DNA from: Naegleria gruberi
Taxonomy: Eukaryota
NCBI GenBank assembly: GCA_000004985.1
Contig: GG738889.1
Reading direction: 5' to 3' (one strand)
Length of the DNA: 64,000 bases
This document shows, in pieces, positions 8,820-31,940 of the stretch. Position numbers and translations under genes: made by a program. Numbering within the stretch: the first letter of the stretch is position 1; each line of letters begins with the position of its first letter. The notes beneath the pieces are model-generated. The model ran no database searches, was not told where the DNA came from, and saw only the letters and a list, made by a program, of their open reading frames with translations.

Positions 8820-8893
8820 TTTTTTTTAGATTTTGATATTAAGGCTTTGAAATGCAAAATACAATATTGAACAACTGAAAAGCAAAATCAACT

Positions 8894-8966
8894 CTCCCCC
8901 TGGTGGGCTCGAACCACCGACCTGCAGATTAACAGTCTGACGCTCTACCGACTGAGCTAAGGGGGA
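8894..8966 (-). tRNA. tRNA-Asn (anticodon GTT), 73 nt
   Basis: Cloverleaf read from reverse complement: acceptor TCCCCCT/AGGGGGA, D-arm GCTC-AGTCGGTA-GAGC, anticodon loop CTGTTAA, T-arm GGTGG-TTCGAGC-CCACC. One T-C mismatch at the top of the anticodon stem. Confidence 0.85.
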
Positions 8967-9372
8967 TTACGTCATCTTTGTAAATTTAAAATTAATGAAG
9001 CTGATTACTCATTATTGAGTTAAAACCAGGAGATGCTTTTGTACCAGTATCCTTCCATCAAACAACTCTTATCTAAAATCTTCAATATAAATTTCTTCAG
9101 GTGTAAAATCTATCGGGCCAAACAGACATTATTGGGACTCGTGTTCATCATGCTCAAAATAACATCATAATAACGACAAGATGCTAAGTTTATTCAGAAC
9201 ACAAAACTTCATGGCAAGGTAATAATAATTTGTGTTAATTATTTTTTTAAAGACGTCAGCTTGTGTGGTTTTTAGCTGTGCTAGTCTGGTGACACAACTT
9301 TCATTGTAAAAAATCAAGTACCTACTCAACTACTCGCAGCGTTAAAAATTCTTTGAAAAAAAACATCGCAAA

Positions 9373-9672
9373 ATGTCTGACGCCCTCACATACGCTACTC
9401 TTTTGTTGGTTGATGCTCAAAAGGATATCACCTCATCAAACATCCTCGCTGTCACCAAGGCTGCTGGTTTGGATGTCAACAAGGCTTCCGCTGAAATTTT
9501 CGCCAAATATGCTACTCCAGCTATGATTGAAGGTTTGATCACCAAGTTGACTGCTGTCGGTGGTGGTGTTGCTTCATCTGCTCCAGTTGCTTCTGCCGCT
9601 GCTGTTGTTGAAGAAAAGAAGGAAGAACCAGAAGAAGAAGAAGAAGAAATGGGCTTCGGTGGTCTCTTCTAA
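9373..9672 (+). CDS. 60S acidic ribosomal stalk protein P1 (99 aa)
   Basis: N-terminal stalk helices (...SYATLLLVDA...IFAKY...), Ala/Gly-rich hinge, acidic EEEEE tail and the conserved MGFGGLF C-terminus. Strongly biased, yeast-like codon usage. Confidence 0.85.
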   Translation: MSDALTYATLLLVDAQKDITSSNILAVTKAAGLDVNKASAEIFAKYATPAMIEGLITKLTAVGGGVASSAPVASAAAVVEEKKEEPEEEEEEMGFGGLF

Positions 9673-9966
9673 ATCTACTCTATCCTAAAATAAAAAAAAA
9701 TATAAATATATAATTTATTCTTTTATTTGCTGATGAAGATGAATTATTTGATATAGTAAGCTTAGGAAGATTTGCATATTTCCTCTGACTTCAATAGAAC
9801 TTTGCAAGATCGTTATTGTTACCCTTGCCTTTTCCTACAAAATTCAAGCAAAAACTCAACGAAAGGTTTGCAGTCATAACAAAGCAATGTTGATTTCGAC
9901 TCGATTTTCTGGTTTATAATCATAATAGGTTTGTTATAATACCAATATTAAAATTCATCCACGTAA

Positions 9967-10055
9967 GGCGGCTTAGCACAGTGGTAGTGCATCAGTCTTG
10001 TAGGCAGAAATGCTGAGATAACTGAGGGTCGAGGGTTCAATTCCCTCAGTCGCCT
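9967..10055 (+). tRNA. Intron-containing tRNA, anticodon TGT (Thr); 17-nt intron after position 37; followed by a T-run
   Basis: Acceptor GGCGGCT/AGTCGCC, D-arm GCAC-AGTGGTA-GTGC, anticodon stem TCAGT/ACTGA with loop CTTGTA|A interrupted by GGCAGAAATGCTGAGAT, T-arm GAGGG-TTCAATT-CCCTC. A downstream TTTTT acts as a Pol III terminator. Confidence 0.7.
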
Positions 10056-10515
10056 TTTTATTATTATTATTGGTTTCAATAAATGCTGAATGCTGTAACT
10101 GATTAATTTCTGAGAATATTTATTATTCTGATGAAAACTTGATAAGAAAATATATTAAGGTTGCCATAGTATCTGAGATTAGGTCACTCGATTCTCCGAA
10201 AAAATTTTACTCATTCAAATTCCATCCTAGCAAGCCTGAAAACGAGGTGTGCAACGATGTGATAACGAAAAAACGATTTTAGAACCCTTAGAGAGGCTTA
10301 TAAAAGTCACATTGGAGAAGAGCGCTACCAGAAACTACTTTCTCAAACAACAAGAGACAATGGAATACATGGCCATGATTGAAAATTTTGCAAACATGCA
10401 TAAGAAAGCTTATTGAATGAAGATATTGTTTAAGGCAAACTCGTTCACTAATTCACTAACTTTCGAATTGATTCAATAAGACGTTTTTTTAATATATTTA
10501 TCTAAATAATTTATT

Positions 10516-11976
10516 TTAAATTTCCATTTCATCGGCCATAATATCTTGGTCAGTATAGGTTTCGTCATCCTTCTTGACTGTAAAGTTTGGAGCGACTCTA
10601 CATCTCTCCATTTTAGTTCCAGCCTCAATAACAGATCCAGAGCTAATCACACAATCCTTCAAATGAACCTTATCTTCAATAATTACGTTACCCATAATGA
10701 CTGAATTATCAATTAAAACTCCACTTCCAAGACTACAATTCTTTCCAATATTACTCTTCTTGATGGTTGGTTTGGATACCTTCTTAGTGACAGATAATCC
10801 TTCTCCAATAACACAATCAGGTCCTAACAAAACAAGATCAGCTGGTGGTGTGACATGTGTACTTTGAACCATTTCACTATAAAAATCAATATTATTCTTT
10901 CTTGCAAGCTAAAATTATTGTGAAATAATTACAATAAATTATTCAAAATAACTTACCTCTCTATTGACATGTAAATAAGAAGAAACATCGTTACATCTCT
11001 TACAAAAAACTCCTTGTCTTGTTGGGGTCTTTGCGGCTGTGGTGGTGGTAGTTGGTTTATCTTCGTGTGGAGGAACAACATGGGCAAAAACTCGAATCAC
11101 ATCACTGAGTTCAGATTCAGATGTACTCATTCTATAAGCTTCTGATAATGGGAATGGCGTAACAACAGTGGAGAGGACAGGATCTAACTTATCGGAAGAA
11201 ACTTTTTGTGAGTCAATCAAGAATGGAACCAAATCAGACTTGATAGAGTGAATATCAGGTTTTTGAACCAATAAATCAATGACCCACTTTGAAAAGATGT
11301 ATAAATGTGAATCTTTGAGGAATTTGGAAATTGAAAAGTTTGACCATCTCTTCAAGAATGAGCGTGGAATTGATAAATGTTCTTCGGAACCATCATCTGC
11401 ATCATCCGAGTCAATAATTCTATTCATAATTACACGTGATGGCTTCTTTGATAATAAATCTCTTCTCTTCTTTGTTGGTTCACCAACAATTTCTCTCTTA
11501 TAATTTGTCAATGCAAAATAATCGGATTTATCCTCTTTAGAATTAATATTTGATTCATCCTTCAAAAGGAGAGTAAGTGATGAATTATGTTGTCTATGAA
11601 TATCATAAACATTAACCAAAGGAACATCAGTAAATGTATCAACACTCATCACAACAAAATTTGTATAAATAGAATCATGAATTTGTCGTAAAGCTTCAGC
11701 ACTTTCGCAATCCTTGTTGTCCAAAGTTTTAATATCAATTTTTAATTTCCCTGGATATTCCTCGATGGCTTGTTCAATAATCTTTTGTTGTCCAGCTTTA
11801 ACAACAACAATAACATCCTTCAATCCATTCCTCTCCAAATAAGACAATGAATAGTGAATCATTGGATGATTAGCAATCGGCAGTGTTGCCTTTGGTGAGT
11901 GGTCTGAAGCGAGAGGATACAGTCTCAATCCATCTCCTCCAGCCAACAATACGGCTTGCAATTCGGTTTGCATCAT
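10516..11976 (-). CDS. Translation initiation factor eIF2B gamma subunit (~470 aa): complement(join(10516..10908,10957..11976))
   Basis: N-terminal nucleotidyltransferase-like domain (LQAVLLAGGDGLRLYPL...PKATLPIANHPMIHYSL) aligns with EIF2B3/GCD1. C-terminal left-handed beta-helix hexapeptide repeats end in ...DEMEI, as in EIF2B3. A 48-nt GTAAGT...TTTTAG intron joins the two track ORFs in frame. Confidence 0.8.
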
Positions 11977-12374
11977 TTTTTTTAATTTTCGTTTTTTTAA
12001 AGTTTTTTCTGAATTTTTTTTAATAGAATTTTATTGGGAAGCATTTCACAATTAACTTTAATTTCTTTAAATATCAAATGGTCTTTGAAGAATATTAAAG
12101 AAGCAATCATGATTGCTGTGGAAAGAGGGGTTTATTTGAAAATGAATTTTTTTAAAAATAGATTCTTAAATTGTTGTAAAGTGTATTTAATGGTATTTAA
12201 TAATAGTATTTAACGCATATTATTTTTTTGAAAATGGACATTTTTTGGTGGACATTTTTACAGCACATTATCCTAAAAAATCAATGAAAAAACAAACCTC
12301 GCTAAAACTTTTCCTATAAATTTGATGCCCAGAACACATGCCACTTAACAACAACCAAAAACAATAAGAAAAAA

Positions 12375-13528
12375 ATGTCTCTAATCAACAACAACTCTGA
12401 AAATACTCCTATTAAAATTACCAATTATGTCAGACTTGGCAATACTGGATTGAAAGTCTCTCCACTCTGTTTAGGTTGCATGAGTTTTGGCAGCTCGAAA
12501 TGGGAACCTTGGGTTTTGGAAGAGGAAGAATCATTGAAAATCCTCAAACGTGCCTTTGATTTGGGAATTAACTTTTTCGACACTGCTGATGTTTATTCGA
12601 ATGGAGAAAGTGAAAGAATTTTGGGTAAATTCTTGAAGGAGAATCAAATTCCGAGAGAGAATGTTGTCTTGGCCACTAAGGTATTCTCTCCAGTGGATCA
12701 TTCAGGTCAACAAGAGAATAAGATTAAGAGTTTGGGAAAGGGAATTCCAAATACTTTTGGATTGTCAAGAAAACACATCATGCATGCTGTTGATTATTCA
12801 TTGAAGAATTTGCAAACTGATTGTAAGTTGTTTTAATTTTTTTCGAAAGATTTAATATTATGGGAATAATAGATATTGACTTGTACATTATTCATCGTTG
12901 GGATAATAATACTCCAATTGAGGAAACTATGGAAGCTCTCCACGATTTGGTTAAATCAGGAAAGGTCAGATACATTGGCGCCTCTTCAATGTGGGCATGG
13001 CAATTTGCCAAGGCACAACACGTGGCCGAAATGAAAGGTTGGACAAAGTTTGTTTCCATGCAAAATCTCTACAATTTAGTGTATCGTGAGGAGGAACGTG
13101 AAATGATTCCTCTCTGTATCGATCAAAAAGTTACTCTAACTCCTTGGTCTCCGTTAGCCAGAGGATTACTTGCAAGAGCTAGTGAACTAATCCGAGCCGA
13201 AACCAATCAAGAAAATCAAGACTCAGCAACTACAAGAGCCAATTCAGATTTCTATGCCAAGGCCATGAAGAATTCATTGAAGGAAAGTGATTTGGAAATA
13301 TTGAGAAGAGTGGACGAATTGAGCTCCAAAAAACAATGCACCAATGCTCAACTTTCTCTCGCATGGATGCTCCACAAACCATTCGTCTCCTCTCCAGTCA
13401 TTGGCGTTACCAAATTGGAAAATATCGAAGCTAACATTGCAGCTTGTTATATTCAATTATCAGAAGAGGAATTGAAATATTTGGAGGAACCTTACCAAGC
13501 CAAAGCAGTCATGGGAAATCTACAATAA
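12375..13528 (+). CDS. Aldo-keto reductase (aryl-alcohol dehydrogenase / Kv-beta-like family), ~367 aa: join(12375..12822,12873..13528)
   Basis: AKR motifs (GLNFFDTADVYSNGESE; SLKNLQTD|YIDLYIIHRWD rebuilt across a 50-nt GTAAGT...AATAG intron). Confidence 0.85.
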
Positions 13529-13645
13529 ACATTTAGCAACATTTCTAAAAATTGTCTTTTTTGATTTTCAAAACCTTCTCTGTTCTTATCAAGAGGGTTG
13601 GGAATTCACAAAGATTCAAAAATTCTAAAATTGGAACAATCAGAA

Positions 13646-16600
13646 ATGCAAAGTCAAATAAAAAAAATGTCACAACAACCCACTCAACCACCTCCCAATG
13701 ATAATGATATCAATATTCTGAGATATCCAACAATAACCCCTACTAATAATAAGAAACCACACAAAGGTGGTTTTATTAAAATTCCAATCACTCCAAACTC
13801 AACCAATGACACAATCGATCCACAGAATATTAACCAGAAGACCAACACTTCTTTATCCACCACTACTATAGATGCTAATGTGAAGCCTGTAGTATTGAAT
13901 AATACATCTCCTACTGATGGAAAAAGAAACAAGCCAAAGAAGAAGAATGATGCGTCATCAAATGCATTGAATGTTGGTGGTCAATCAAGTGCTGCATCTT
14001 CATCATTGGATGTTGTTGTACCTCCATCACCATCATCCGAAGCATCTGCATCATCATCATCTACATTCAGTAAGAAAGGTAGAGAATTTAAACCCTCCGA
14101 ACATGCAAACAAGAGATTTTCACAAGTACTTTTAATGTGTGGAAAATGTAATTCATGTCTTGCTGCCAATACTTTGGAAGCCTCTCACATGTTTAGTGTT
14201 TTCAAAGATGATCGTACGAGACATGCTGTTCTGAAGGATCAAAATGTGATTGGGAATACCTTGATTGAGAAGGAAACCAATTTCAAGTTTGAAAAGAAAA
14301 ACGAAAAGTACCGAAAGACTCACATGTTATATTGTAAAGCATGTAATCAAAAAGTGGGTTCTAGATTTCCAGGCAATTATCCAGATACTGAATTGCCTAA
14401 AAGAATGTTCGATGGTAGTGATTGTAAGGTTTCATGTAAGGAGTTGAATAATGATGATGGACAAGATGTTGTAATGAATGTTGAAGAGTGGAGAACTTTG
14501 AGTAGTTCATTGAGAGATTATGGATTATATCCTCCACGTCATGTATCTTCTCAAGATTCATCGAGAAATAATTCCAGAGATGGTTCTTTCAAGAAGGATT
14601 TCAATGGAAAGAAACCAGTAGAAAGTGGGACGAATGAAAACAAATTTCAAAAGAAGGAATTTAACAAGAAGAGTTTTGAAAAGAAGAATCATCAACCAAA
14701 TGAACCGATTACATCAATCCCATTTATAAGCAACAATGAGGTGGATAATATCTTTGGAAGAAACAATCAAGGATCGTCATCTTCATCACCATTCATCAGA
14801 AACATTTCTCCAAAATTTGGTCAATTGTCTCAAGCAAGAGTTCAAAAAGATTTGCCTCCAAAAAAGGAAAAGAAAGATTACACAATCAAAACTGTTAAGG
14901 GTATTGGTTTTTATATTGACAATTCACTTTTCAATGAAAATCAAAAAGAATATTTCATCAAGAACTTAACACAAGAAGAATTCAAATCAATATTCAATAA
15001 GGGAGGTCTTTTAGAGGAACAAGAAGTTAATTTTTCAATTATTGAAAAGCTCATGAAGGTCTTTGCCCATGAGCAAATAGAATTATCAACTAACAAGTCA
15101 CTAATCACCCCAATCTTTTCTCATCTCATGAATAGCTTATTTTGGAGAAGAGTTGTAAAGAAATATATTGTACAGGATGTAATTGATGATGAACAAGTTA
15201 AAGACTTGATCACAGTTTTTCACAGATGCTTGGAGTTTTGTCCACAGGAAGCTGAGAGAGTTTTCATTGAAGAATTAGAAAAGGTGTACATTGACAAATT
15301 CGTCTCTCAAGATTATCAGGAATCCATTATGGCAATCAAGAAAAGGAAGCAAGCACTCAAATTGGCCAACTCAAAGATGGATAAAGGACCACTACCTGAA
15401 CAACAAGAAATCAACGAAAATGATGAAAATGAATTTGAGGAAATTAGTGTCTTTCCAACTTTCAATGAATTGACTTCGAATGAAAGATTCAAAGTTAGAA
15501 ACAATGTTGATGGCCCTTATTCTTCTTTGAGAGAATATATTAGGACTCAAATATTGTTATTGAGAGAGGATTTTATTCATCCACTCAAGGATGGCATTCA
15601 ATCTTTCCTTTCCAATAATTGTAACCATAGATCAATTTCAGTTTTCACAGATTGTCAATTCGTGTCTGTTATTTCATCAGATAATGAACGTGAATTAGTT
15701 CATTCTCTTTCATTCCATTATCCTTGGAGAAGGATCAATTGGGAATGTACCAAAAAATTAGCTTTCGGTTCCCTTCTCTGTTTATTCCCACAAGAAGGTT
15801 CTGGAAAGAATGCAACCATTGTAAAATCAGAGCCAATATTTGTAACAGTTTTGGATAGAAAATCGGTCTCAAAAGAATTAATTTATGTTGGTTTGAGTAG
15901 AGTTGAGGATTTCAAGAGACTTTCTCTCGTTGGAAAATATGTCATGTTTGAATCACCTGCTTATTTCGCTGGAGTTAGACCTGTCATTGATTCTCTCAAT
16001 ATGATTCTCAATGAAACCTTAATTGACCAATCCAAATTTACATTTTATGATGAATTCATCAAATTGAAACAACAAACTCCACCACAATATATCGAAAGAG
16101 ATAGTTTTATGAATTTAGATGTTATCAAGGGAGATCAAAGAAGATCGACTCAATCAGATTTATCTACTGGAAGAAAAACTAATATTTTGAGTAATTGGAT
16201 TGAGGATAATGAGACTTTCCTTGATCCTAGTCAAAACAAGGCCATTCAACACGTTATGAGAAATAGAGTTTCAATTGTAAGTATAAGAAATCAAACTATT
16301 GCTCTAATTTTGAAAGGTAATTGGACCTCCAGGTTGTGGAAAAACGTTTACAGGAATTGAGATTGCTAAATTATTGAAGAGTCACCCAGATATGAAAAAT
16401 AGACAATTAATATGTATTACTTATACTAATCATGCTCTTGATCAATTTTTAGAAGGTTTAATTGATTATTTCCCAGATATTGTCAGAATTGGCAGTAGAA
16501 GTAAGAGTCAGAATGAGAAACTATTGAATAGAAACCTTTCTAAAATGAGATATTTGCCACAATATCTATATGTAGAAAAGCAAAAGTGTGAAGCTGAATT

Positions 16601-19600
16601 GAGAAGGTTGTCACTCACAATTGGTGCAACAGAACTTTCTATCAAGAATCCAGACGATAGTTTACTTCGCCACTTGGCAAAATCATTTGTATTTAATAGA
16701 GCTCTCTCAAAATTCCCAATTCACCTGTATAGCAAGAGAAATCCACCTCCAGAAACCTTACAAGCCATGTTCAGAGCTTGGTTAGGAGGAGACGATCTCA
16801 GAAGAAAGGAGAGTTTACAAAAGAACATGCAAAAGGCCTATAGAACTGCTAATTTCTTTAGAGTTCTACAAGAAAATAACAATGAAACACAAGAAGAAGA
16901 CGAGGAGGAGGAGAAGCTCATTATTGAAGAGGAACCTCAGAGAGAAATCATTCCACAAGAAGAAGTTATTGTGGAAGAAGTTGAAGATGAAATCGAAGAA
17001 GAAATTGAAGCCGAATTGATTAATGAAGAAATGAGAAATATATTTGGCTATGAAGAAAATGAAATCACCAATGAAGTTGCTATTACTAAAATGTATGAAG
17101 ATTTAGAGGATGCATCAGATATTCAATCAGAAACTCGAGCAGAAATCCAAAAAATAGAGCAAATAGTCAAGCAATGTGGGGATATTTACAGAATTCCTCT
17201 CAAGAAGAGAATTTCAATGCTCAACCCATTGAGAATTTTGAATGAGAAACTACTCAAGGCACGTCTCATTGATTTATGTCATCTTAGAAGCCACTATGAG
17301 AATAGAAAATACGAAATTATTATGGATGGAGATTATGACAAATTGAAAACTGCCTCAGTTATTGGATTGACTTCTACAGCTGCTTCCATGAATAGACAAC
17401 TATTGAATAGATTAAAGTCACCTGTCTATCTCATTGAAGAAGCTGCTGAATTATTGGAATGTCAAATTACTTCTGTATTGCATCCAAATGTTGAACATTT
17501 AATTATGATTGGTGATGAGAAACAACTTCAACCTAAAGTCAACTCTTACTACTTGGAGAAGAATTGTGATTTCACTGTGAGTTTATTCGAAAGATTGATC
17601 AGAAATGGATTGGAATATTCTTCACTCAATGTCCAACAAAGAATGAGACCAGAAGTTAGAGAATTAGTCGATATGTTCTATGAGAAACTAATTGACCATG
17701 AAAGTGTTAAACAATTCGAAAATGTTAATGGAGTGAGTAAGAATGTTTGCTTTATTGAACACAAGAAATTAGAAAAGACCTCAGATGATGTTCAATCATT
17801 GACCAATCCACATGAAGCTGAGTTTTTATGCAAGTTTTCAAAGTATCTTCTCAATGTCAGACAATTCAAGGCAAGTCAAATTACAATTCTGACACCTTAT
17901 AGAGGACAAGTTATTTTGATTAAAAAGACACTCAGGGAATTGCTTAATCAAGACTTGTATAGAGAATTGAGAGTTTCTACTGTTGATGATTATCAAGGAG
18001 AAGAAAATGAGATTATTTTACTTTCGTTGGTGAGATCGAATAACTTTGAAAATCTTGGATTTGTTAAGATTACCAACAGAATTATTGTTTCATTGAGTAG
18101 AGCAAAGAAGGGTCTCTACATTATTGGCAATCACGATTTGTTAAGAAATAACGAAGATTGGAGAAAGGTCTTTGCTAGACTAAAACATTCGGATAGAATT
18201 TTGGATCATTTACCTCTCTCCTGTCCAACACACTCTGAAGAAAGAGAATGCATAAGAGAACCAAGTGATTTTGATGGTGTTATCTGGGGAGGGTGTAAGA
18301 AACCATGTACTTATCGTTATCCATGTGGACACATTTGTTCATTACCGTGCCATCATGATTCATTACATAAGGAAAGAAAATGTGAAAAGATTTGTGGTGA
18401 AAAATATGAAGATTGTGGTCATAGATGCGAGGACAAGTGTCATCATGGAAAATCCTGTCCAAAATGTAAAACTAAAGTTGACTACAAGTTTGTGGCATGT
18501 GGACATGTTACAAAAGTTGCATGCCACTTGAAAAATACTACTCAATTGTGCAAATCAACGTGTAACAAACTTCTTGGATGTGGACATAATTGTAGAGGAC
18601 AATGTGGACAATGTGGATTAACTGGTTGTGGACCATGTATTGCCACAGTCAAAGATTATTGTGAAACTTGTAAGAAACCATATGAAAGAAGATGTTCAGA
18701 GCCAAGAATCTGTACAAATCGTTGTACTGTCAAACTATCTTGTGGACATGCATGTTCTGGAAAGTGTGGTGAATGCTCAACCAGTGGAACTCATAAAGTT
18801 TGTGGATTCAAGTGTGAGAGAAAACTCATTTGTGGACATATTTGTAAAGCTAAACATACTTGTAGTAATCCGTGTCCAAAATGTGAGGAAATGTAAGTAT
18901 TTCAATTTATGCTTTGATTTTTATAATTTCCATAGTTGTAAATTCAAATGTTTCCATAATATTCAATGCAAGCTTGCTTGCCATGAAATGTGTCACAAGT
19001 GTAAGGAGCCATGTCCAATTCAATGCCCACACAGAAAATGTACAAATCTTTGTCATGAGTTGTGTAATGTGGAGCCATGCAATGAGAAGTGTCCAAACAT
19101 CTGTTCAAAATGTAATCATCAATGTATGGGACTTTGTGGAGAGCCATGTCCACCATGTATGTATTGCGATACTCTGAAGAAAGAGGAGGAAGAAATGTGG
19201 CAATGCCCAATCTCTTTTTACACATTTGAAGATTTAATTCAAAGCGACGATTCGAGGGTTTATCATTTACCTGAATGTGGACACACCATTGAACTTGAAT
19301 CAATGGATAATTGTGTGAAAACCTTCTTTGATACGGAACAAGGAGTTTCAATCAAATACTTGTCATGTCCAGTGTGTAGAACTCCAATATTTACTTCTCC
19401 AAGATATCAACACTCTATCAAGCAATCTGTTGAAAGAATGGAAAATCTCAAATATGTAATTTACAAAAAGGCAGAGGAGGAAAAAGAAAGAAAGCAAGCT
19501 ATTAAGGCTGTCTCTGCTGGCTATGCTTCTGGTCATTGGTTCACTTGTCCAAATGGTCATCCATATTTCATTGGTGATTGTGGAGGAGCCATGCAACAGA

Positions 19601-25045: not shown

Positions 25046-26029
25046 ATGTACTCACTCCAAAAAGCTTCCCGATGCTTATTATCCAACAGCAGACAATCCC
25101 ATCTTGCCACTAGATTTCCATCATCCTTTATTACTTCATCAAATCAAGTAATTTATAGAGGATTTTCACAAACACAATTCAAGAGAAGTGAAGAAAAGAA
25201 ACAAGAGGAATCAAGATCCGAAGAACAATCACAACAACAACAGGAAGAAAAAAAGAGTTACTTTAAGAGATTGTTCTCACCAGCCAATTTGATCTTGCCA
25301 GCCGTGTTCGGAATTGTTTTATATAATTTTGCATCATATGATGTTCGTCAAAAGAAACGTGAGGCTGAATTGGAGAGTAAGTTTTCATTCTGTGATGTTG
25401 ATGATAATAGTAATAATACAATAATTCAACAATGATAATGATAATAATATTAATAATGGAATTAATTGGAATAATTAGAACAAGCAAGTAGCAAGGCTGT
25501 TAAAGCTGTAGGAGCTCCAAAACTTGGAGGTGCTTTCACTCTTGTTAATACTAAAGGAGAAGTTGTTACAGATTCTGAATTTAGAGGAAAATTCATGTTC
25601 ATGTATTTTGGATTTACTAATTGTCCTGATGTTTGTCCAACTGAAATGAAAAAGATGACAAAAGCACTTCAAAAAATTGAAAAGGAAAATCCAGAGTTGG
25701 CAGACAAGATTGTTCCAGTGTTTGTTTCATGTGATCCACCTCGTGATTCATGCACAGCTGTCATTGAATATCTTCAAGATTATCACCCAAGATTTGTTGG
25801 ATTAACTGGTACTCCAGATCAAATCAGTAGAATTTGTAAGAAATATAGAGTTTATTACAATGCTCCTGATTACAAGGAAGGATCACAAGATTACTTGGTT
25901 GACCACAGCATTTTCATTTACTTGATGGATCCATATGGTCACTTGTCTGAATATTTTGCTCAAAATACTACTGCTGATAAGATTTACGAAAGTGTTAGTA
26001 CAGCCTTAAAATCATATAAATGGGAATAA
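25046..26029 (+). CDS. SCO1: SCO1/SenC cytochrome-oxidase copper-chaperone, mitochondrial (~294 aa): join(25046..25376,25479..26029)
   Basis: Mitochondrial presequence and TM anchor, then a thioredoxin-fold region with the CPDVCP copper site (FMYFGFTNCPDVCPTE) and the DYLVDHSIFIYLMDP motif. A 102-nt AT-rich intron (GTAAGT...TTAG) in phase 1 joins the two ORFs. Confidence 0.85.
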
Positions 26030-26150: not shown

Positions 26151-26777
26151 ATGATAGAAGAGAAAGCTCAACCAATTTCCGAAGAATTATTGCACAGTAC
26201 CAGATGGCTACAATTAAAAACCCTCACCTACCAAGATGAATCTAAAACAATTAGAAAATGGGATTGTGTAGAGAGATCAACAAGAACAAGCGATATTGAT
26301 GGAGTTGATATTATTGCTACTCTTGATGCAATTCCCGAAAGTGATCAGGAAGAAGGTGGAAAATATGTTATCCTCATTTCACAATATCGTCCTCCAATGA
26401 GAAATTATTGTATTGAATTTCCAGCTGGTTTGAGTGATGCTGGTGAGACTGCCGAAGAAACTGCTAGAAGAGAAATGCTTGAGGAAACTGGACTAATGGT
26501 TGAAAAGGTTAATAGAGTTTCGCCAATATTGGGAATGGAAGTTGGGTTAACCAATGCTAATTGTAAAATAATTTATTGTCAAGTACAATCTATCAAAATT
26601 TCAGAAAGACCAAAGCAACAATTGGAAGATGATGAAAACATTACTATTCACTTTGTAAAATTATCAAATATTATGGAAAAATTGGAGGAATTTGCCAAGT
26701 TGGGATTTACTATTGATGCCAAGGTTTGGACTTTTGCTTTTGGAATTGAACAAGCCTCATTATTTACAAAACAGTAA
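26151..26777 (+). CDS. Nudix hydrolase, ADP-ribose pyrophosphatase type (NUDT5/YSA1-like), 208 aa
   Basis: Nudix box GETAEETARREMLEETG preceded by ISQYRPPMRNYCIEFPAGL, matching NUDT5. Confidence 0.8.
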   Translation: MIEEKAQPISEELLHSTRWLQLKTLTYQDESKTIRKWDCVERSTRTSDIDGVDIIATLDAIPESDQEEGGKYVILISQYRPPMRNYCIEFPAGLSDAGETAEETARREMLEETGLMVEKVNRVSPILGMEVGLTNANCKIIYCQVQSIKISERPKQQLEDDENITIHFVKLSNIMEKLEEFAKLGFTIDAKVWTFAFGIEQASLFTKQ

Positions 26778-26787
26778 AATGGATTTA

Positions 26788-29700
26788 TTAATCTAGTAAG
26801 TCAACTTCAGTAAATTTAACTGAACTATTTGCATCCTCCAATTTTTGAAGTTTGAGTGGAGGAACCTTATTGTATGTAGCTGAAAGAGTTGGATGGACTT
26901 GTTCTTCTGTAGCTTCTGAAAGCTCAAGAGGGGTTTCTTCATATTTATGAACAACTACACTGTTCGATTTTACAAAAACTTGTCCACCACCATAGGTTAC
27001 CTCACCAGAAGTTGATGTAACTTTTTGAGTCTTTCTAGCTCCATACCAAATGCAGAAGAAAATTGATGCAAGAGTTACGCACAGACATAATGCAAACATT
27101 ACAGTGGAGAGCACAACACCTGCTACATATGTGAATGAATGATATACTGTTGTTACTGTTTCCATGATGAAAACATTTGTTAATTGTTTACATCTGCATA
27201 CAGCATATGTATCATTCATTGATAGCATTATGCAATCAACTGCAACCTCTGTTGAACCATCATCAAAATTGCCACAAGAATATCTTACTTCTTGTTCTAT
27301 ATAATCTAATGTAGTGTGAATAACTTCATGGATTGCAATAGATTTGTTGATAGGAATTTCATAAACCAAATATTGCGAATTAACTGGAATAGACAAATCA
27401 ATTAGTTTAAGGGAAACAATTGGTGAAACTAAGCTAGACATTTGATAGGTTTGTGAATCGACTTTTTGGGAGATTGTTAACTTTGTGTTCAAAGAAAATA
27501 CATCAATTGAACTTGAGAAAATATATACAAATGGTTTCTTGAAAAGTGTAGTAACCTGAGGACTGAAATCAAAGATGTAGTTTTCCATTTGAACAGATGC
27601 CTTACTAACATCATCATGAATTGAGGTAGGCATGTCAAATATTGTGTGTCTATTTACAGTCATCGAGTAGAATGACCCTGTCTTTTGTTGTTTCTTACTT
27701 CCCACAACAATATTTCGTCCAATTAAACAAGTGGACAATTTGAGAGCTGACAATAATCTACGAGAGTTGGTTGATTGATCTACAAAGTATTGTCTATTGA
27801 TGATATAACTATAAGCAGATTCTACACTACTGACAAGCAATGTTTCAATCTCTGGAGCTAATTTAAGATTTGGATCAGCCAAAGCATACTCAAGGAACAT
27901 ATTCAATGTGAAAAGCGATTCTGATATTGTTTTGGAATTGAGCAATTGGTAATTGATCAACAGAGAGTCAATTGAGAATGATAACAAGGAGAGATAGTAA
28001 TCATTTACGAATCCGTCAGTACTATTCGCAATGTAAATCATATCTCTGAGTACTATCATCTTGGTTCCTTGAATATCAGAAAAAGCTTGAATAGAATCTG
28101 AGCAATCAGATCCAATCCAACCATCTTCACATTTACAGACACCTGAAATGTCTCTTCCATGAATACACTCTATAGTTCTTTTTACTGGTTTGGATGATAC
28201 ACTGTACAGTTTCTTTAAAAGCTGTTGTAACAAGACAGAGTCAGTTCTTGAGGTTGTAGCTGATTGATAGAAGCTTGAACTAAATTCTCCCTTAGAGGTA
28301 AATTCAGAACTCTTCTCAGCCCATTCCTTAACAATTTTAGAGGCATCTGAAAAATCACTAATGACTGGCTTTGAAATGGTCAAATTTTGATAAGTAGTTA
28401 TTGAGGCACCAGTAACTGTTTGAATCACCTCAAAGTAACACGTTAAGGTAGAACCACTGAAAGGAGCTGGAAGCTTTGAAGAGTAAATGTCACCAAACTT
28501 GTAGAGCTCAATTTTTGATCCTGATCTATCATCAATGAATCCGTACTTGTAATCAATATTTGCTTCAATGTTCTTGCAGTTGGAACAGTAGAACTTGAAT
28601 TCTGTTTCTAGAGCTTGACCCTTGAGTGGTGAAATAGTACAATCACAAGGTTTTGGGGTTACAGCAATGGTGAATGAGTAACTTGATTGAGTTGAAAAAC
28701 CAGTCTTTTTGTCAAAAATAATGCATGTCACAACATTGGTTGAACCTTCTTCGAGCTGTTTGGTGTCAATAATAATTGTGATTGTCTTGTCAATTGTTGT
28801 GTTACTACAAGAGGTGTTTTGTAAAACAGCTCCATTCAGCAACCAGGTAGCATTCACAGAGGAAGATTCAGCATAAAGCAGGGCTTGAATTGACAAAAAT
28901 TGTCCAGGAAGTAAAATAGAGGAGGAAGGCTCGATATGAAGAATGTTCAATAGTGGAGGAACTTTACCAAAGAATACAGTGGTTGTCTTTTCAATTGATC
29001 GACCATCTAATTTTTCAACTCTCAGTTTAAGTTCTACAGAGGATGGGATAGTAGAGAACAATGAGCTTGACACTACAAATTCTGAAGCCTTTGTTGAGCC
29101 TGCATTGTTGAGCAAATTAACTAGTTCAGGACTTGTGTTATCCAAACAGGTCCAAGTCCATGTTTCAATTGAGCTATCATGCAATGACATTTCTGGGTCT
29201 AAATAATCAACTTCAATAGTGGTATGGTATTTGGTAGATTCACTTTGAATAATGCTAAGAATGAGGTCAGGTGACTTTGTTACAATATTAACGATAGTGG
29301 ATGCTTTCAATGATGGGTTGGAAGCATAAAAAGCTGACACCTCAAAAGTGTAATTTTGAGTCCCAAACTTGCTAACAGAAGGAATGAACAAGTTATTGTA
29401 AGAGTCTGAACTGAATGTTATGGCTGAGCCACTCAACTTGGTCCATTCCACTTGCAATACGTCACTATCACTTTGACATACAGAAGGTGTAATCACTTTC
29501 TTTACAGTGAGAGGGAATTGGTTTGTATACTTTACAATTGTCTCTCCCTTATTGCTTGTACTGAGTAGAGGAAGTGGTTTTACTGCTTTGGTGAATCTCT
29601 TGGAAGACACAGTGCTACTCACCAAATTTAACCACTTACTTTTAACATAGAGGGTCATAATGTAGTCACCAGCTGTAAGAGAAGAATCAAGTGTAAAGAT

Positions 29701-30663
29701 GGATTGTCCTTGTAATATTGAGACAGGATTCATGGTTGTAGCATCTAGAAGTGACCAATAATACAATAATTGCTTGCCATCTATGGAATAGCTCGAAGAG
29801 CCATCAATAGTGATTGTGTCGCAAGAACTATAGATATCTGTACTGGCCATTTGAATGATAGCTTTTGGTGGTGAAATATTTTGAGGTACATTCACAGTCA
29901 ATGGCATGTATTGTTGATGGATTTGCTCATTTTCAAAAGCAAGATCATTAATTTGAATTGTTGTCTCTCCTGGTTGAATATCATAATCAACAGAACCAAA
30001 AGATATCATAAAGAGTCCGCTAACCTTATCTAAATATTGGCACTTGATGTTTGTTATCGAGCCATACACATTCTTGCTAATGTCAGAGGGATGTAGTAAG
30101 GATGAGCATGGAACATCCTTTTCGATAAAGTCATAAGGTGAATGCAGATAAAAGGTTATACCCTTAAAATCTGACGATATCACTGCTGGTCCTACAACCC
30201 TTGATGAACACTTCTCACCATGATACTCTGATTGACATGAACTACATGAACGGCCTGTCCAAAATCCCTCCTTAATACTTGAGTGGCATTCACATTCTCC
30301 CTTAATATTGCACTCTCCATGACCAGTGCAATTAATAATTCTATCGCAAAAAGTTGGCGATATTTCCAATTGACAATTACTACCCTCATAACCACTCGAA
30401 CAAGAACAGTTATTCAATGAAATACATGCTCCTCTCCCTGAACAAACACTCGTATCATTTGCTCTCATTCCCTCACATGTAATACTGTCCTCACCTAGCT
30501 TATTCAATTTACATTCAATCCTAGAAGAATTTAATAACACTAGCAGCACAGCCATCAAAGTTAAAAATATTATCGAAAAACCTGTCGTACGAGACGATGA
30601 TGGCTTGGTGTTATGATTGATTAAGGCGGCGAAAATAGCCCTGCCGCGAATTGGCTGCGTCAT
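26788..30663 (-). CDS. Giant type-I membrane glycoprotein: signal/anchor, EGF-like Cys-rich modules, REJ-like repeat region, GPS/GAIN-like motif and a single C-terminal TM (~1290 aa)
   Basis: N-terminal hydrophobic segment, EGF-like modules (CSGRGACISLNNCSCSSGYEGSNCQ; CKCEDGWIGSDCS), and ~800 aa of beta-rich repeats carrying YYWSL / TWTWTC / ATWLL motifs typical of REJ modules. A juxtamembrane GPS-like motif (C.C..LT.F: AVCRCKQLTNVF) sits directly before the TM (VAGVVLSTVMFALCLCVTLASIFFCIW), followed by a short cytoplasmic tail. The track start at 30714 is a GTG; the ATG is at 30663. Confidence 0.6.
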   Translation of the reverse strand: MTQPIRGRAIFAALINHNTKPSSSRTTGFSIIFLTLMAVLLVLLNSSRIECKLNKLGEDSITCEGMRANDTSVCSGRGACISLNNCSCSSGYEGSNCQLEISPTFCDRIINCTGHGECNIKGECECHSSIKEGFWTGRSCSSCQSEYHGEKCSSRVVGPAVISSDFKGITFYLHSPYDFIEKDVPCSSLLHPSDISKNVYGSITNIKCQYLDKVSGLFMISFGSVDYDIQPGETTIQINDLAFENEQIHQQYMPLTVNVPQNISPPKAIIQMASTDIYSSCDTITIDGSSSYSIDGKQLLYYWSLLDATTMNPVSILQGQSIFTLDSSLTAGDYIMTLYVKSKWLNLVSSTVSSKRFTKAVKPLPLLSTSNKGETIVKYTNQFPLTVKKVITPSVCQSDSDVLQVEWTKLSGSAITFSSDSYNNLFIPSVSKFGTQNYTFEVSAFYASNPSLKASTIVNIVTKSPDLILSIIQSESTKYHTTIEVDYLDPEMSLHDSSIETWTWTCLDNTSPELVNLLNNAGSTKASEFVVSSSLFSTIPSSVELKLRVEKLDGRSIEKTTTVFFGKVPPLLNILHIEPSSSILLPGQFLSIQALLYAESSSVNATWLLNGAVLQNTSCSNTTIDKTITIIIDTKQLEEGSTNVVTCIIFDKKTGFSTQSSYSFTIAVTPKPCDCTISPLKGQALETEFKFYCSNCKNIEANIDYKYGFIDDRSGSKIELYKFGDIYSSKLPAPFSGSTLTCYFEVIQTVTGASITTYQNLTISKPVISDFSDASKIVKEWAEKSSEFTSKGEFSSSFYQSATTSRTDSVLLQQLLKKLYSVSSKPVKRTIECIHGRDISGVCKCEDGWIGSDCSDSIQAFSDIQGTKMIVLRDMIYIANSTDGFVNDYYLSLLSFSIDSLLINYQLLNSKTISESLFTLNMFLEYALADPNLKLAPEIETLLVSSVESAYSYIINRQYFVDQSTNSRRLLSALKLSTCLIGRNIVVGSKKQQKTGSFYSMTVNRHTIFDMPTSIHDDVSKASVQMENYIFDFSPQVTTLFKKPFVYIFSSSIDVFSLNTKLTISQKVDSQTYQMSSLVSPIVSLKLIDLSIPVNSQYLVYEIPINKSIAIHEVIHTTLDYIEQEVRYSCGNFDDGSTEVAVDCIMLSMNDTYAVCRCKQLTNVFIMETVTTVYHSFTYVAGVVLSTVMFALCLCVTLASIFFCIWYGARKTQKVTSTSGEVTYGGGQVFVKSNSVVVHKYEETPLELSEATEEQVHPTLSATYNKVPPLKLQKLEDANSSVKFTEVDLLD

Positions 30664-30887
30664 TGTTGATGTGTTTTTTTGTGGTGGGAAAAGCTGTTGT
30701 TTATAATATCGCACTTCTTTCTCTTAAGCGAACTAGTCACAGCCAATGCTGATTCATTTTTGAAAATTGTAGGACATTTAAGGAAGATGATTCATTTAGA
30801 AATTTTGCCAATGAACCAGTGGCAATAAGGAAAAAACAGTCTTGCATTAAAACAAATATTAAAAAAAATAAAAATTGAAAGAAAAAA

Positions 30888-31940
30888 ATGCAGAGAATGG
30901 TGTGGAGAGGAGGAGCGATTGTTTTTGGAGGAATGTTGGGTTATTTCGGAAAGAATTATTTGAGAGATTTTAAAAAAGAGTTTTTAGAAAAGAAGATGCA
31001 AGTAGATCACTTGTTGTTTACTAGTAAATTGTTAAAGTTTAGGAAATTTTCTAATGGTGATCCGATGGTAGAAGATATTGATTGTAAATATTTGGAATTG
31101 ATTAGTGATTATTTGGTTTTTAATTTAAAATCATTACCTATGGATGATGGTAATTTGAAAAGAAATATTTCTAGTGGAACTTGTTTTGTGACAAGTCCAA
31201 TGAATGATCCATCTTGTGAATATATTTATTTGGTGACTGCTGCACACTGTGTTATAAATAAGGAGGGAAAGGCAAAGAAAGTTGGACTCATTCCAAAGAA
31301 TAAGGAAGGTTCCATATCAAATCAAAAACTAAAATCGAATAGTGGAGAGTTAATCGAGTGTCAAATAATTTGTTGTGAATATGATGGAGATAGAGATGTG
31401 GATTTTGCAATTATGAAATGTTCTAGGAAGGAATTTTTGGAAAAGAATGGGTTTACTGAGATACCTAGTCAATATTTTGTGCCTAAGATTGGTGAATTTA
31501 AAGAAAATGATGATAATTTGAATAATATAATAGTTGGATATCCTTCAAAGTATAAAGAATATAGAGATAAGCGAGTACTAGATTATACTTTTGAAAAATT
31601 GAATGGGTTAATGATGACATATCAAAAGAGACCAGTATTTTCTTTTGGAAGATATTTAAGAACGGAAAAGAGTAACTCAGAGAAGGCAGATATCACTATT
31701 TTTACGAACACCATCAATAAGGGATTCAGTGGCGGTCCTTCCATTGAATGGAGAGGTAATACATCTCAAAATGATACACTCCCTAAATTTCATGGTATTG
31801 TGGCATTGTTTGATGATGCTGGATATGGATCTTTTAATGTTTCGAATGAAGAATTTAGGCAGGCTTACTTTTCACATATTGAAATTCCTTCAACAACTGG
31901 TCTAGATATAAAGAAAGCCATCGAGGAATATAGAAAATAA
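30888..31940 (+). CDS. Membrane-anchored trypsin/chymotrypsin-fold serine peptidase (350 aa)
   Basis: N-terminal TM (GGAIVFGGMLGYFG). Catalytic triad contexts: LVTAAHCV (His), DFAIMKC (Asp), NKGFSGGPS (Ser, GDSGGP-like). No PDZ or other accessory domain. Confidence 0.55.
   Translation: MQRMVWRGGAIVFGGMLGYFGKNYLRDFKKEFLEKKMQVDHLLFTSKLLKFRKFSNGDPMVEDIDCKYLELISDYLVFNLKSLPMDDGNLKRNISSGTCFVTSPMNDPSCEYIYLVTAAHCVINKEGKAKKVGLIPKNKEGSISNQKLKSNSGELIECQIICCEYDGDRDVDFAIMKCSRKEFLEKNGFTEIPSQYFVPKIGEFKENDDNLNNIIVGYPSKYKEYRDKRVLDYTFEKLNGLMMTYQKRPVFSFGRYLRTEKSNSEKADITIFTNTINKGFSGGPSIEWRGNTSQNDTLPKFHGIVALFDDAGYGSFNVSNEEFRQAYFSHIEIPSTTGLDIKKAIEEYRK

What the first reader, a model, noticed from the sequence alone, without database searches (positions are those of the whole stretch)
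26788..30663. REJ-module + GPS-motif giant single-pass membrane protein (polycystin-1/suREJ-like ectodomain without the channel part)
N-terminal EGF-like modules, ~800 aa of beta-rich modules with YYWSL / TWTWTC / ATWLL signatures characteristic of REJ repeats, then a juxtamembrane C.C..LT.F GPS-like motif (AVCRCKQLTNVF, Gln replacing the cleavage His) immediately before one TM and a short tail. This architecture is best known from animal PKD1/PKDREJ and sea-urchin REJ proteins. In a genome with fungal hallmarks (LYS4, GPI wall protein) it is unexpected and may be a cell-cell recognition or adhesion receptor.
Basis: partly seen in the sequence, partly recalled or inferred. Interest (0 to 1): 0.55.

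Follow-up and report, generated by a model that had tools for sequence, protein, structure and literature searches.

The report
Naegleria surface protein with REJ and GAIN
This gene of the amoeba Naegleria gruberi encodes a large single-pass surface protein built from EGF, REJ and GAIN modules, the outer part of animal polycystin-1 and sea-urchin egg-jelly receptors without any channel; it is a distant new member of a known kind, not a fungal oddity.

Summary
Window 26788-30663 (- strand) is one uninterrupted 1291-codon gene, 100% identical to Naegleria gruberi 'predicted protein' NAEGRDRAFT_71231, so the genome is a heterolobosean amoeba, not a fungus.

- **Domains by sequence.** Pfam finds EGF modules and a REJ domain (61 bits, cutoff 25). 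The Pfam GPS model stays below threshold (13 bits, cutoff 22.5).
- **GPS motif.** A profile of the juxtamembrane region from ten relatives hits the GPS motifs of adhesion GPCRs in the PDB (ADGRL3, E=1.3e-6).
- **Cleavage site.** The four GPS cysteines are invariant. The cleavage triad reads Q-L-T instead of H-L-T, no relative has the His, and several lack the nucleophile.
- **Membrane topology.** There is one C-terminal transmembrane helix, an 81-residue tail, and no PLAT, 7TM or channel domain.
- **Distribution.** The family is ten N. gruberi paralogues plus one metagenome protein among 1.8 billion representatives. It is absent from N. fowleri proteins and from the syntenic N. fowleri slot.

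The closest known layout is sea-urchin SpREJ1. The most likely role is an adhesion or recognition receptor with a structural, poorly cleaving or non-cleaving GAIN stalk; this is inferred.

The parts
26788..30663 (-). Complete coding sequence (1291 aa plus stop at 26788-26790), with no intron needed; it is N. gruberi NAEGRDRAFT_71231 / XP_002673696.1 / D2VQH8
   Evidence: ORF list; translation; 100% identity and coverage to the NCBI protein
30511..30594 (-). N-terminal hydrophobic segment (residues 24-51): a signal peptide with a long n-region, or a signal anchor
   Evidence: Kyte-Doolittle window mean 2.43; paralogue P0003 has a canonical N-terminal signal at residues 1-25
30205..30459 (-). 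N-terminal EGF-like modules (residues about 69-153)
   Evidence: Pfam EGF_2 26.7 bits (cutoff 22.1), EGF_Teneurin 31.2 bits (cutoff 24.3), EGF_TEN E=1.6e-9
28282..29850 (-). PKD-like/REJ module (residues about 272-794): about 100-aa beta-rich repeats, each with an x-W-x signature (W303, W407, W503/505, W607)
   Evidence: Pfam REJ PF02010 E=9.1e-17, 61.2 bits, best stretch 432-794; weak K319L-like PKD hit at 282-343; motif periodicity
28102..28167 (-). Four-cysteine EGF-like module directly before the GAIN domain (C833, C843, C845, C854)
   Evidence: Weak Pfam EGF hits at 832-856. C843, C845 and C854 are invariant and C833 is present in at least 90% of the 10 family members
27718..28092 (-). 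GAIN subdomain A (residues 858-982): five long alpha-helices
   Evidence: AlphaFold model, helices at fragment positions 33-157; superposes on GAIN structures
27136..27690 (-). GAIN subdomain B (residues 992-1176): 14 beta-strands and 2 small helices
27169..27276 (-). GPS motif (C1130 ... C1144 ... C1156-R-C1158-K-Q-L-T-N-V-F1165)
   Evidence: The four Cys are invariant in the family; the family profile hits the GPS of ADGRL3 at E=1.3e-6, ADGRD1 at 2.5e-5 and soluble ADGRL3 GAIN at 2.5e-4; sub-threshold Pfam GPS hit at the same place
27178..27186 (-). Equivalent of the autoproteolysis triad: Q1160-L1161-T1162, where canonical GPS has H-L-T/S
   Evidence: Register from the HMMER alignment to ADGRL3 and from the Cys spacing of CL1 (C832, C834, H836, L837, T838; PMC3321182)
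27034..27135 (-). Single transmembrane helix (residues 1177-1210)
   Evidence: Hydropathy 2.53; AlphaFold helix at fragment 353-389
26791..27033 (-). Cytoplasmic tail (residues 1211-1291), ending in NKVPPLKLQKLEDANSSVKFTEVDLLD. A V-x-P ... [DE]-L-[LVM]-[DE] motif near the C-terminus is shared with paralogues P0002, P0003, P0006 and P0007
   Evidence: Tail sequences compared by eye

Best explanation
The gene encodes a type I (ectodomain-out) surface glycoprotein of Naegleria gruberi. From the outside inwards it has EGF-like modules, a roughly 520-residue REJ module made of about 100-residue beta-sandwich repeats, one more EGF-like module, and a roughly 320-residue GAIN domain whose last strand runs straight into a single transmembrane helix. 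An 81-residue cytoplasmic tail follows. It belongs to a N. gruberi family of ten paralogues that keep this REJ-EGF-GAIN-TM stalk and vary the distal part (EGF arrays, NHL repeats, an ice-binding-like stretch).

The most likely working model is as follows. The distal modules bind a ligand on a substrate, prey or another cell. The REJ array acts as a long, possibly extensible spacer. The GAIN domain serves mainly as a folded membrane-proximal scaffold and not as an efficient autoprotease, because the general-base His is missing in the nine of ten aligned members whose motif aligns without an insertion, and the nucleophile is missing in several. The short tail, with its conserved C-terminal motif, would couple to cytoplasmic partners.

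Shown here: gene structure, organism, EGF and REJ domains, GPS homology, predicted GAIN fold, single TM, family size and distribution. Inferred: topology, lack or weakness of cleavage, and the adhesion/recognition role.
For: - **Gene and organism:**
- **EGF and REJ domains** pass Pfam thresholds. REJ is also found in paralogues P0002, P0003, P0008, P0010 and P0011.
- **GPS homology:** the 10-sequence profile hits the GPS of ADGRL3 (E=1.3e-6), ADGRD1 (2.5e-5) and ADGRF1 (6e-3), and a soluble ADGRL3 GAIN construct without a TM (2.5e-4), with the Cys and L-T-N residues in register.
- **Cleavage triad across the family:** Q/K/T/K/R/S/R/K/S at -2, L/F (T in P0012) at -1, T or G at +1. In latrophilin CL1 the mutations H836S and T838G abolish cleavage but not folding (PMC3321182).
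- **One TM and no other domains:**
- **Extracellular character:** 15 N-glycosylation sequons and 39 Cys.
- **Variable tips on a conserved stalk:**
Against: - No expression, localisation, ligand or cleavage data exist for this protein, and no paper mentions it.
- L1161-T1162 are retained. BAI3, with Arg at -2, is uncleaved in HEK and insect cells, yet endogenous BAI proteins are cleaved in brain (PMC3321182). Some cleavage therefore cannot be excluded.
- The Pfam GPS model is below threshold.
- The N-terminal hydrophobic segment sits 24 residues in, so it could be an uncleaved anchor.
Confidence: 0.6

Rival explanations
1. The GAIN domain is a working autoprotease. The protein would be cut between L1161 and T1162 into a large extracellular fragment held non-covalently on a short membrane stub, and force or ligand binding could shed the ectodomain.
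For: Leu at -1 and Thr at +1 are kept, and Thr is kept in 6 of 10 family members. The four disulphide cysteines that hold the kinked turn are invariant. The fold is GAIN. A basic residue at -2, as in BAI3's Arg, occurs in five paralogues, and endogenous BAI proteins are cleaved in brain (PMC3321182).
Against: No family member with an unambiguously aligned motif has His at -2, and this protein has Gln, a poor general base. P0003 and P0009 have Gly at +1, the same change that abolishes cleavage in CL1 (T838G). P0012 also has Gly at +1, and the motif of P0010 is degenerate. Cleavage is therefore not what selection maintains across the family.
Confidence: 0.2
2. It is the ligand-binding, regulatory partner of a separate polycystin-2-type or other cation channel. 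This would resemble SpREJ1, which has only one or two TMs and whose engagement raises Ca2+ in sperm, and polycystin-1 with polycystin-2.
For: The ectodomain logic is the same as in SpREJ1: EGF + REJ + GPS and no 11-TM block. Antibodies to SpREJ1 raise intracellular calcium (PMC1934368).
Against: No partner channel was identified here. There is no PLAT, coiled coil or channel-like segment. Similarity to SpREJ and PKD1 is at the domain level only (11-12% identity in structural alignments to animal GAINs). The family is missing from N. fowleri, which argues against a core ciliary or ion-signalling role.
Confidence: 0.15
3. The single-pass architecture is a gene-model artefact: a truncated polycystin-1-like or adhesion-GPCR-like gene whose multi-pass part lies in missed exons.
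For: The remote relative P0004 (REJ + canonical GPS) continues into several TM segments.
Against: The ORF ends in a stop at 26788-26790, and a convergent NUDIX gene ends 10 bp away at 26777 on the other strand. All complete family members have exactly one TM after the motif, followed by short tails. The tails share a C-terminal motif.
Confidence: 0.02
4. The GPS-like motif is a chance cysteine pattern, and the region between REJ and the TM is an unrelated helical/beta stalk.
For: Pfam GPS is below threshold (13.2 bits against 22.5). hhalign against the single GPS-bearing protein P0004 gave only 2% probability. Both conserved GPS tryptophans are missing in this protein.
Confidence: 0.03

Closest known systems
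Sea-urchin receptor for egg jelly 1 (SpREJ1/suREJ1)
   Same: A large glycosylated membrane protein of similar size (1450 aa against 1291 aa) with an EGF domain, a REJ domain and a GPS upstream of its first TM. It lacks the 11-TM block and has only one or two TMs (PMC1934368).
   Different: SpREJ1 has C-type lectin domains, and none is detected here. This protein has an extra EGF-like module between REJ and GAIN and a His-less GPS that Pfam misses. There is no sequence similarity beyond the domain level, and the organism is a heterolobosean amoeba rather than an animal, so this is not an orthologue.
Polycystin-1 family (PKD1, PKDREJ, PKD1L1-3; SpREJ3-9)
   Same: A REJ module followed by a GAIN/GPS domain immediately before the first TM (PMC3321182; PMC1934368).
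   Different: Polycystin-1 proteins have 11 TMs, a PLAT domain after TM1 and a channel-like C-terminal part, and are cleaved at H-L-T. This protein has one TM, no PLAT and Q-L-T.
GAIN domains of adhesion GPCRs (BAI3/ADGRB3 4DLO, ADGRF1, CELSR1, latrophilins, ADGRG6, CD97)
   Different: There is no 7TM domain, so a tethered-agonist mechanism has no receptor in cis. There is no HormR domain, and an EGF-like module precedes GAIN instead. Identity is 11-12%.
Protist and algal REJ/GPS proteins (Tetrahymena and Dictyostelium GAIN proteins; Ectocarpus Esi0130_0068)
   Same: They show that REJ and GAIN/GPS exist well outside animals (PMC3321182; PMC4700764).
   Different: The Ectocarpus protein has 6-7 TMs and a polycystin channel hit, with a Pfam-detectable GPS. 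The Naegleria family is single-pass with a divergent GPS. I found no paper reporting GAIN or REJ in Naegleria.

Membership tests
REJ domain (Pfam PF02010) | Match to the curated profile above the gathering score | tested here: met
   61.2 bits against cutoff 25, E=9.1e-17, profile positions 49-443 of 452 on residues 432-794
REJ domain (Pfam PF02010) | Six conserved cysteines of complete REJ domains (PMC1934368) | not tested
   Eight Cys lie in residues 432-794, but no residue-level alignment to SpREJ or PKD1 was made
GPS motif (Pfam PF01825) | Match to the curated profile above the gathering score | tested here: not met
   No hit on the full protein at E<=10. On the 390-aa fragment the hit is 13.2 bits against cutoff 22.5 (E=0.13) at the correct place, and 4 of 10 family members give such weak hits
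GPS motif (Pfam PF01825) | Four cysteines forming two disulphides, spaced C...C-x11-C-x-C, directly before the cleavage triad | tested here: met
   C1130, C1144, C1156 and C1158 are invariant in 10 sequences. The spacing after the second Cys matches CL1's C820, C832 and C834. The profile hit to the ADGRL3 GPS has E=1.3e-6. Disulphide formation itself was not tested
GPS motif (Pfam PF01825) | Two conserved tryptophans | tested here: not met
   F1133 replaces the first Trp and the second is absent. Both are present in the family member P0012
GPS motif (Pfam PF01825) | H-L-T/S/C cleavage triad | tested here: not met
   The triad is Q1160-L1161-T1162. The His is absent in the nine of ten aligned family members whose motif aligns without an insertion, and the +1 residue is Gly in P0003, P0009 and P0012
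GPS motif (Pfam PF01825) | Location immediately before the first TM helix | tested here: met
   T1162 lies 14 residues before the TM, which starts at about residue 1176
GAIN domain | A fold of about 320 residues: six-helix subdomain A plus a beta-sandwich subdomain B of 13 strands and 2 small helices that contains the GPS (PMC3321182) | tested here: met
GAIN domain | Autoproteolysis | not testable with these tools
   Needs an immunoblot of wild type against T1162G. The sequence argues for weak or absent cleavage
Polycystin-1 (PKD1) family | Eleven TM segments with a PLAT domain after TM1 and a channel-like C-terminal region | tested here: not met
   There is one C-terminal TM and no PLAT or PKD_channel hit. 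The stop codon and a convergent neighbouring gene leave no room for more
Adhesion GPCR | A 7TM domain following the GAIN domain | tested here: not met
   A single TM and an 81-aa tail
SpREJ1-like single-pass REJ receptors | EGF + REJ + GPS + a single TM | tested here: met
   SpREJ1 description in PMC1934368, which gives SpREJ1 and SpREJ2 one or two TMs
SpREJ1-like single-pass REJ receptors | C-type lectin carbohydrate-recognition domains, and orthology to the sea-urchin gene | tested here: not met
   No Lectin_C hit. Only Naegleria paralogues and two metagenome proteins are detectable by sequence

The most novel reading that the evidence does not exclude
The REJ-GAIN tandem would be an ancient eukaryotic ectodomain cassette, already present in the common ancestor of Discoba and Amorphea. 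It would predate its fusion to 11-TM polycystin or 7-TM adhesion-GPCR bodies. Naegleria gruberi would preserve, and have recently amplified to ten paralogues, a free-standing single-pass form in which the GAIN domain has lost its catalytic His and acts as a non-proteolytic membrane-proximal scaffold or mechanical element beneath variable adhesive tips. The alternative is that the cassette reached the N. gruberi lineage secondarily, which would fit its absence from N. fowleri.
Probability: 0.3. Interest if true: 0.5.

Novelty: new member of a known kind. Interest (0 to 1): 0.33.

Why it matters
GAIN domains and REJ modules are studied almost entirely in animal adhesion GPCRs and polycystins, where mutations cause polycystic kidney disease and other disorders. 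Their origin and their function independent of proteolysis are open questions.

A heterolobosean family that couples REJ and GAIN to a bare single transmembrane helix extends the documented range of the cassette to Discoba. Its GPS is so divergent that Pfam misses it, and it lacks the catalytic His. This gives a natural example of a GAIN domain that cannot act through a tethered agonist in cis. That is useful for separating the structural role of GAIN from its signalling role.

It also flags ten unannotated N. gruberi surface proteins, absent from the pathogen N. fowleri, as candidates for substrate or prey adhesion. The gain is incremental. GAIN was already reported in Tetrahymena and Dictyostelium, REJ+GPS in brown algae, and the REJ hit is already in automatic annotation.

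Tried and rejected
- **PDB sequence searches.** phmmer of the full protein against PDB sequences found only a marginal EGF match (E=0.99). The REJ region alone found nothing.
- **First AlphaFold run.** With only three paralogues the model was unusable (pLDDT 43.8). It was replaced by a 10-sequence alignment, which worked.
- **hhalign.** The three-paralogue profile against the GPS-bearing region of P0004 aligned the motif correctly but was not significant (probability 2%, E=0.022).
- **Pfam GPS and GAIN.** GPS is sub-threshold (13.2 bits against cutoff 22.5) and no GAIN-family model was among the hits listed for this protein's fragment.
- **Second family member in the window.** tblastn with all paralogues found only this gene, although P0003 and P0007 lie on the same 348-kb scaffold.
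- **Literature.** No paper pairs Naegleria with GAIN, and none cites the locus tag or accessions. Searches pairing Naegleria with REJ, polycystin or PKD2 returned nothing relevant.
- **AFDB50 fold search.** The library was not available.
- **Fungal origin.** Rejected on 100% identity to N. gruberi.
- **Remnant of the gene in the syntenic N. fowleri interval.** tblastn found no hit better than E=0.096, and none between the NUDIX and trypsin-like genes.
Full report
**1. What is at the coordinates**

The interval 26788-30663 holds one uninterrupted reading frame on the - strand. The mechanical ORF starts at a GTG at 30714, and the first ATG is at 30663. Translated from that ATG it gives 1291 residues and a stop at 26788-26790.

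The product is identical, over its whole length, to a deposited protein called only 'predicted protein [Naegleria gruberi]'. Its identifiers are XP_002673696.1, EFC40952.1, D2VQH8 and NAEGRDRAFT_71231, on a 348-kb scaffold. The window therefore comes from the heterolobosean amoeboflagellate Naegleria gruberi, not from a fungus. Its 31-40% G+C (mostly 31-37%) and long intron-free ORFs fit that.

The neighbours are ordinary housekeeping genes:
- an ankyrin-repeat protein;
- SCO1/SenC;
- a NUDIX hydrolase that ends 10 bp from this gene's stop on the opposite strand;
- a trypsin-like peptidase;
- a methyltransferase;

**2. The observation**

Hydropathy shows an N-terminal hydrophobic segment (24-51) and one strong C-terminal TM (1176-1210), followed by 81 residues. 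The sequence has 15 N-x-S/T sequons and 39 cysteines, 35 of them N-terminal to the C-terminal TM helix, as expected for an extracellular glycoprotein.

Pfam confirms N-terminal EGF modules above the curated cut-offs. It also finds a REJ domain at E=9.1e-17 (61.2 bits against 25) that covers almost the whole profile (positions 49-443 of 452) on residues 432-794. A weak PKD-like hit lies at 282-343.

The 'REJ signatures' are the x-W-x motif of successive repeats of about 100 residues (W303, W407, W503/505, W607). The same spacing is seen in paralogue P0002 and in the REJ+GPS protein P0004.

**3. Is the juxtamembrane region a GPS/GAIN domain?**

This was the uncertain part, because Pfam's GPS model gives no hit on the full protein. 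On the isolated fragment it gives only 13.2 bits (cutoff 22.5, E=0.13), although at the correct place. Three further lines of evidence settle it.

*(a) A small, coherent family.* An exhaustive HMMER search of 1.84 billion representative proteins, using a profile of residues 826-1215 and two paralogues, found only 11 proteins. Ten are N. gruberi proteins and one comes from a JGI metagenome. Aligned, they share an EGF-like module, a helical stretch, a beta-rich stretch and four invariant cysteines (C1130, C1144, C1156, C1158). Then comes [LF]-[TG]-N-V-[FI], and about 14 residues further on the TM. The metagenome member keeps the two classic GPS tryptophans (CVKWNGASWDADAC...CKC).

*(b) Significant sequence similarity to known GPS motifs.* The 10-sequence profile, searched against all PDB chain sequences, hits these GPS regions:

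| PDB target | E-value |
|---|---|
| ADGRL3 | 1.3e-6 |
| ADGRD1 | 2.5e-5 |
| soluble ADGRL3 HormR-GAIN construct, no TM | 2.5e-4 |
| ADGRF1 | 6e-3 |

The alignment places 'kCkCskLTNvf' on 'CSCNHLTNFA'. This fixes the register: Q1160-L1161-T1162 stand where latrophilin has H-L-T.

*(c) A predicted GAIN fold.* A template-free AlphaFold2 model built on that alignment has mean pLDDT 79.3 and pTM 0.69, with pLDDT 87-93 over the GPS strands. It shows five long helices, then 14 strands and two small helices, then the TM helix. The published GAIN description is six helices plus 13 strands and two small helices in about 320 residues (PMC3321182). Here the domain spans residues 858-1176.
- Foldseek against the PDB returns GAIN domains as its eight best hits. 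These are BAI3 4DLO (both chains; E=4e-12, TM 0.52/0.57), BAI2, CELSR1, latrophilin-1, latrophilin-3, GPR110 and CD97.

I conclude that a GAIN domain is present. This remains a prediction from a shallow alignment, and an earlier three-sequence run failed.

**4. What is not there**

There is no PLAT domain, polycystin channel, 7TM domain or C-type lectin domain. The stop codon, the convergent NUDIX gene 10 bp away and the same one-TM-plus-short-tail ending in all complete paralogues exclude a truncated gene model. The protein is therefore neither a polycystin-1 family member in the strict sense nor an adhesion GPCR.

**5. The cleavage site**

In latrophilin CL1, two disulphides (C834-C820 and C832-C801) hold the kinked turn. 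The mutations H836S, L837A and T838G each abolish autoproteolysis without preventing folding. BAI3 has Arg in place of the His and is uncleaved in cultured cells, although endogenous BAI proteins are cleaved in brain (PMC3321182).

The Naegleria family keeps all four cysteines. The cleavage positions vary:

| Position | Residues across the family |
|---|---|
| -2 | Q, K, T, K, R, S, R, K, S; never His |
| -1 | L or F (T in P0012) |
| +1 | T in six members, G in P0003, P0009 and P0012 |

P0010 is left out of the table because its motif aligns only with a two-residue insertion. Selection in this family is evidently on the fold and the last strand (the T-N-V-F-[IV]-x-E-T stretch is strongly conserved), not on catalysis. 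For this particular protein (Q-L-T) I judge efficient autoproteolysis unlikely but not excluded.

**6. Family and distribution**

The paralogues range from 1152 to 4968 residues. They keep the stalk but differ distally:
- long EGF arrays in P0005 and P0006;
- NHL repeats plus Delta/Jagged-type EGFs in P0010;
- a sub-threshold ice-binding-like hit in P0002.

Five paralogues also pass the Pfam REJ threshold.

No N. fowleri protein is found by either search, although the N. fowleri proteome is in the database. As a control, the adjacent NUDIX gene has a 67%-identical N. fowleri orthologue.

In the N. fowleri locus, the genes on the NUDIX side are conserved in order (ankyrin, SCO1, NUDIX) and the trypsin-like gene follows next. 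The methyltransferase is also present, about 5 kb further downstream, with several other genes in between. Between NUDIX and the trypsin-like gene there are only two small unrelated genes (181 and 182 aa). Nothing in that 20.6-kb locus resembles any family member (best tblastn E=0.096, and that hit lies outside the interval).

The gene was therefore inserted in the N. gruberi lineage or lost in N. fowleri. Other Naegleria and heterolobosean genomes could not be searched here.

**7. How it most likely works**

The following is inference. The ectodomain is exposed on the cell surface. The distal EGF modules and the first beta-sandwich repeats would bind a ligand on a substrate, prey or another cell. 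The REJ array would be a long, possibly extensible spacer; force spectroscopy of human PC1 REJ shows stepwise unfolding, as cited in PMC1934368.

The GAIN domain, packed directly on the membrane, would be a rigid scaffold. With no 7TM or 11TM body in cis, a tethered-agonist mechanism has no target.

The tail carries a motif near its C-terminus that several paralogues share. Examples are NKVPP...EVDLLD here, NQVVPADQDLVDF in P0002, NQVQPMDVELVE in P0003 and SQVIPLR[VI]DL[LM]DE in P0006 and P0007. This suggests a docking or sorting signal.

The rivals are real autoproteolysis with force-dependent shedding (about 0.2) and a SpREJ1/PC1-like role as the ligand-binding partner of a separate cation channel (about 0.15).

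**8. Comparison with what is known**

The closest known architecture is sea-urchin SpREJ1. It has 1450 aa, lectin domains, one EGF, a REJ domain and a GPS before its first TM, and it lacks the large TM block (PMC1934368). The resemblance is in domain layout only. Lectin domains are absent here, and no sequence relationship beyond the shared domains is detectable.

GAIN domains were already reported in Tetrahymena and Dictyostelium (PMC3321182). REJ+GPS with a channel-like body is reported in the brown alga Ectocarpus (PMC4700764). A 2025 survey states that the GAIN domain predates Holozoa and that only its linkage to the 7TM domain is holozoan (PMC12716839). I found no paper linking Naegleria with GAIN or REJ, and none mentioning this gene.

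**9. Verdict**

The feature is real and correctly described. The taxonomic premise that made it seem surprising is wrong. The protein is a new, highly divergent member of a known kind: a single-pass REJ-GAIN receptor. It belongs to a N. gruberi-specific ten-gene family with a His-less GPS.

Interest is moderate to low (0.33). It adds a discobid data point to the deep history of the GAIN/REJ cassette and offers a natural non-catalytic, receptor-less GAIN domain. It does not overturn current views.

Noticed in passing
window 26151-31940 compared with L001 (N. fowleri VFQX01000052.1) 8631-13695: Gene order on the NUDIX side (ankyrin, SCO1, NUDIX) is conserved between N. gruberi and N. fowleri, and the trypsin-like gene follows next in both; the methyltransferase lies about 5 kb further on in N. 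fowleri. The slot that holds the 3.9-kb REJ-GAIN gene in N. gruberi holds two small unrelated genes without Pfam hits (181 and 182 aa) in N. fowleri.
   Followed up: partly
window 26791-27033 (-), and the tails of P0002, P0003, P0006, P0007: The otherwise divergent cytoplasmic tails share a motif near the C-terminus, roughly [NS]-[QK]-V-x-P-x(3-20)-[DE]-L-[LVM]-[DE]. This could be a sorting or adaptor-docking signal. It was seen by eye only, with no statistics.
   Followed up: no
window 26151-26777 (+): The intron-free 208-aa NUDIX ORF has an exact match only in an ENA metagenome assembly (P0014, 1.8-kb contig). It has no exact match among NCBI's N. gruberi proteins, which suggests the deposited gene model differs or is missing. 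P0013, more than 90% identical to paralogue P0009, likewise shows N. gruberi-like DNA in an ENA assembly.
   Followed up: no
window 25595-26029 (+): The SCO1/SenC ORF is only 144 aa and starts at profile position 24, whereas the N. fowleri orthologue is 322 aa. The N. gruberi gene probably has an upstream exon, so introns do occur in this window.
   Followed up: no
window 28943-29206 (+): An 87-aa ORF lies antisense inside the REJ-coding region. It is almost certainly a chance ORF.
   Followed up: no
model m408a3916185b (residues 826-1215): Foldseek's ninth PDB hit (E=1.4e-4, probability 0.99, but TM 0.24) is chain 9K of the Leishmania tarentolae 96-nm doublet-microtubule repeat (9y6s). It probably reflects only the helical part of the model.
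   Followed up: no
window 13598-18896 (+): Two adjacent long ORFs carry a ZNFX1 domain and AAA_11/AAA_12 helicase domains. Together they look like one ZNFX1/NFX1-type helicase gene split by an intron or a frame change.
   Followed up: no
P0004 (ENA metagenome protein, 1781 aa): The closest non-Naegleria relative found by word-indexed search combines REJ (E=1.9e-24), a canonical GPS with the H-L-S triad (PF01825, E=8.5e-10) and several TM segments. It is a polycystin-1-like layout from an unidentified microbial eukaryote.
   Followed up: partly
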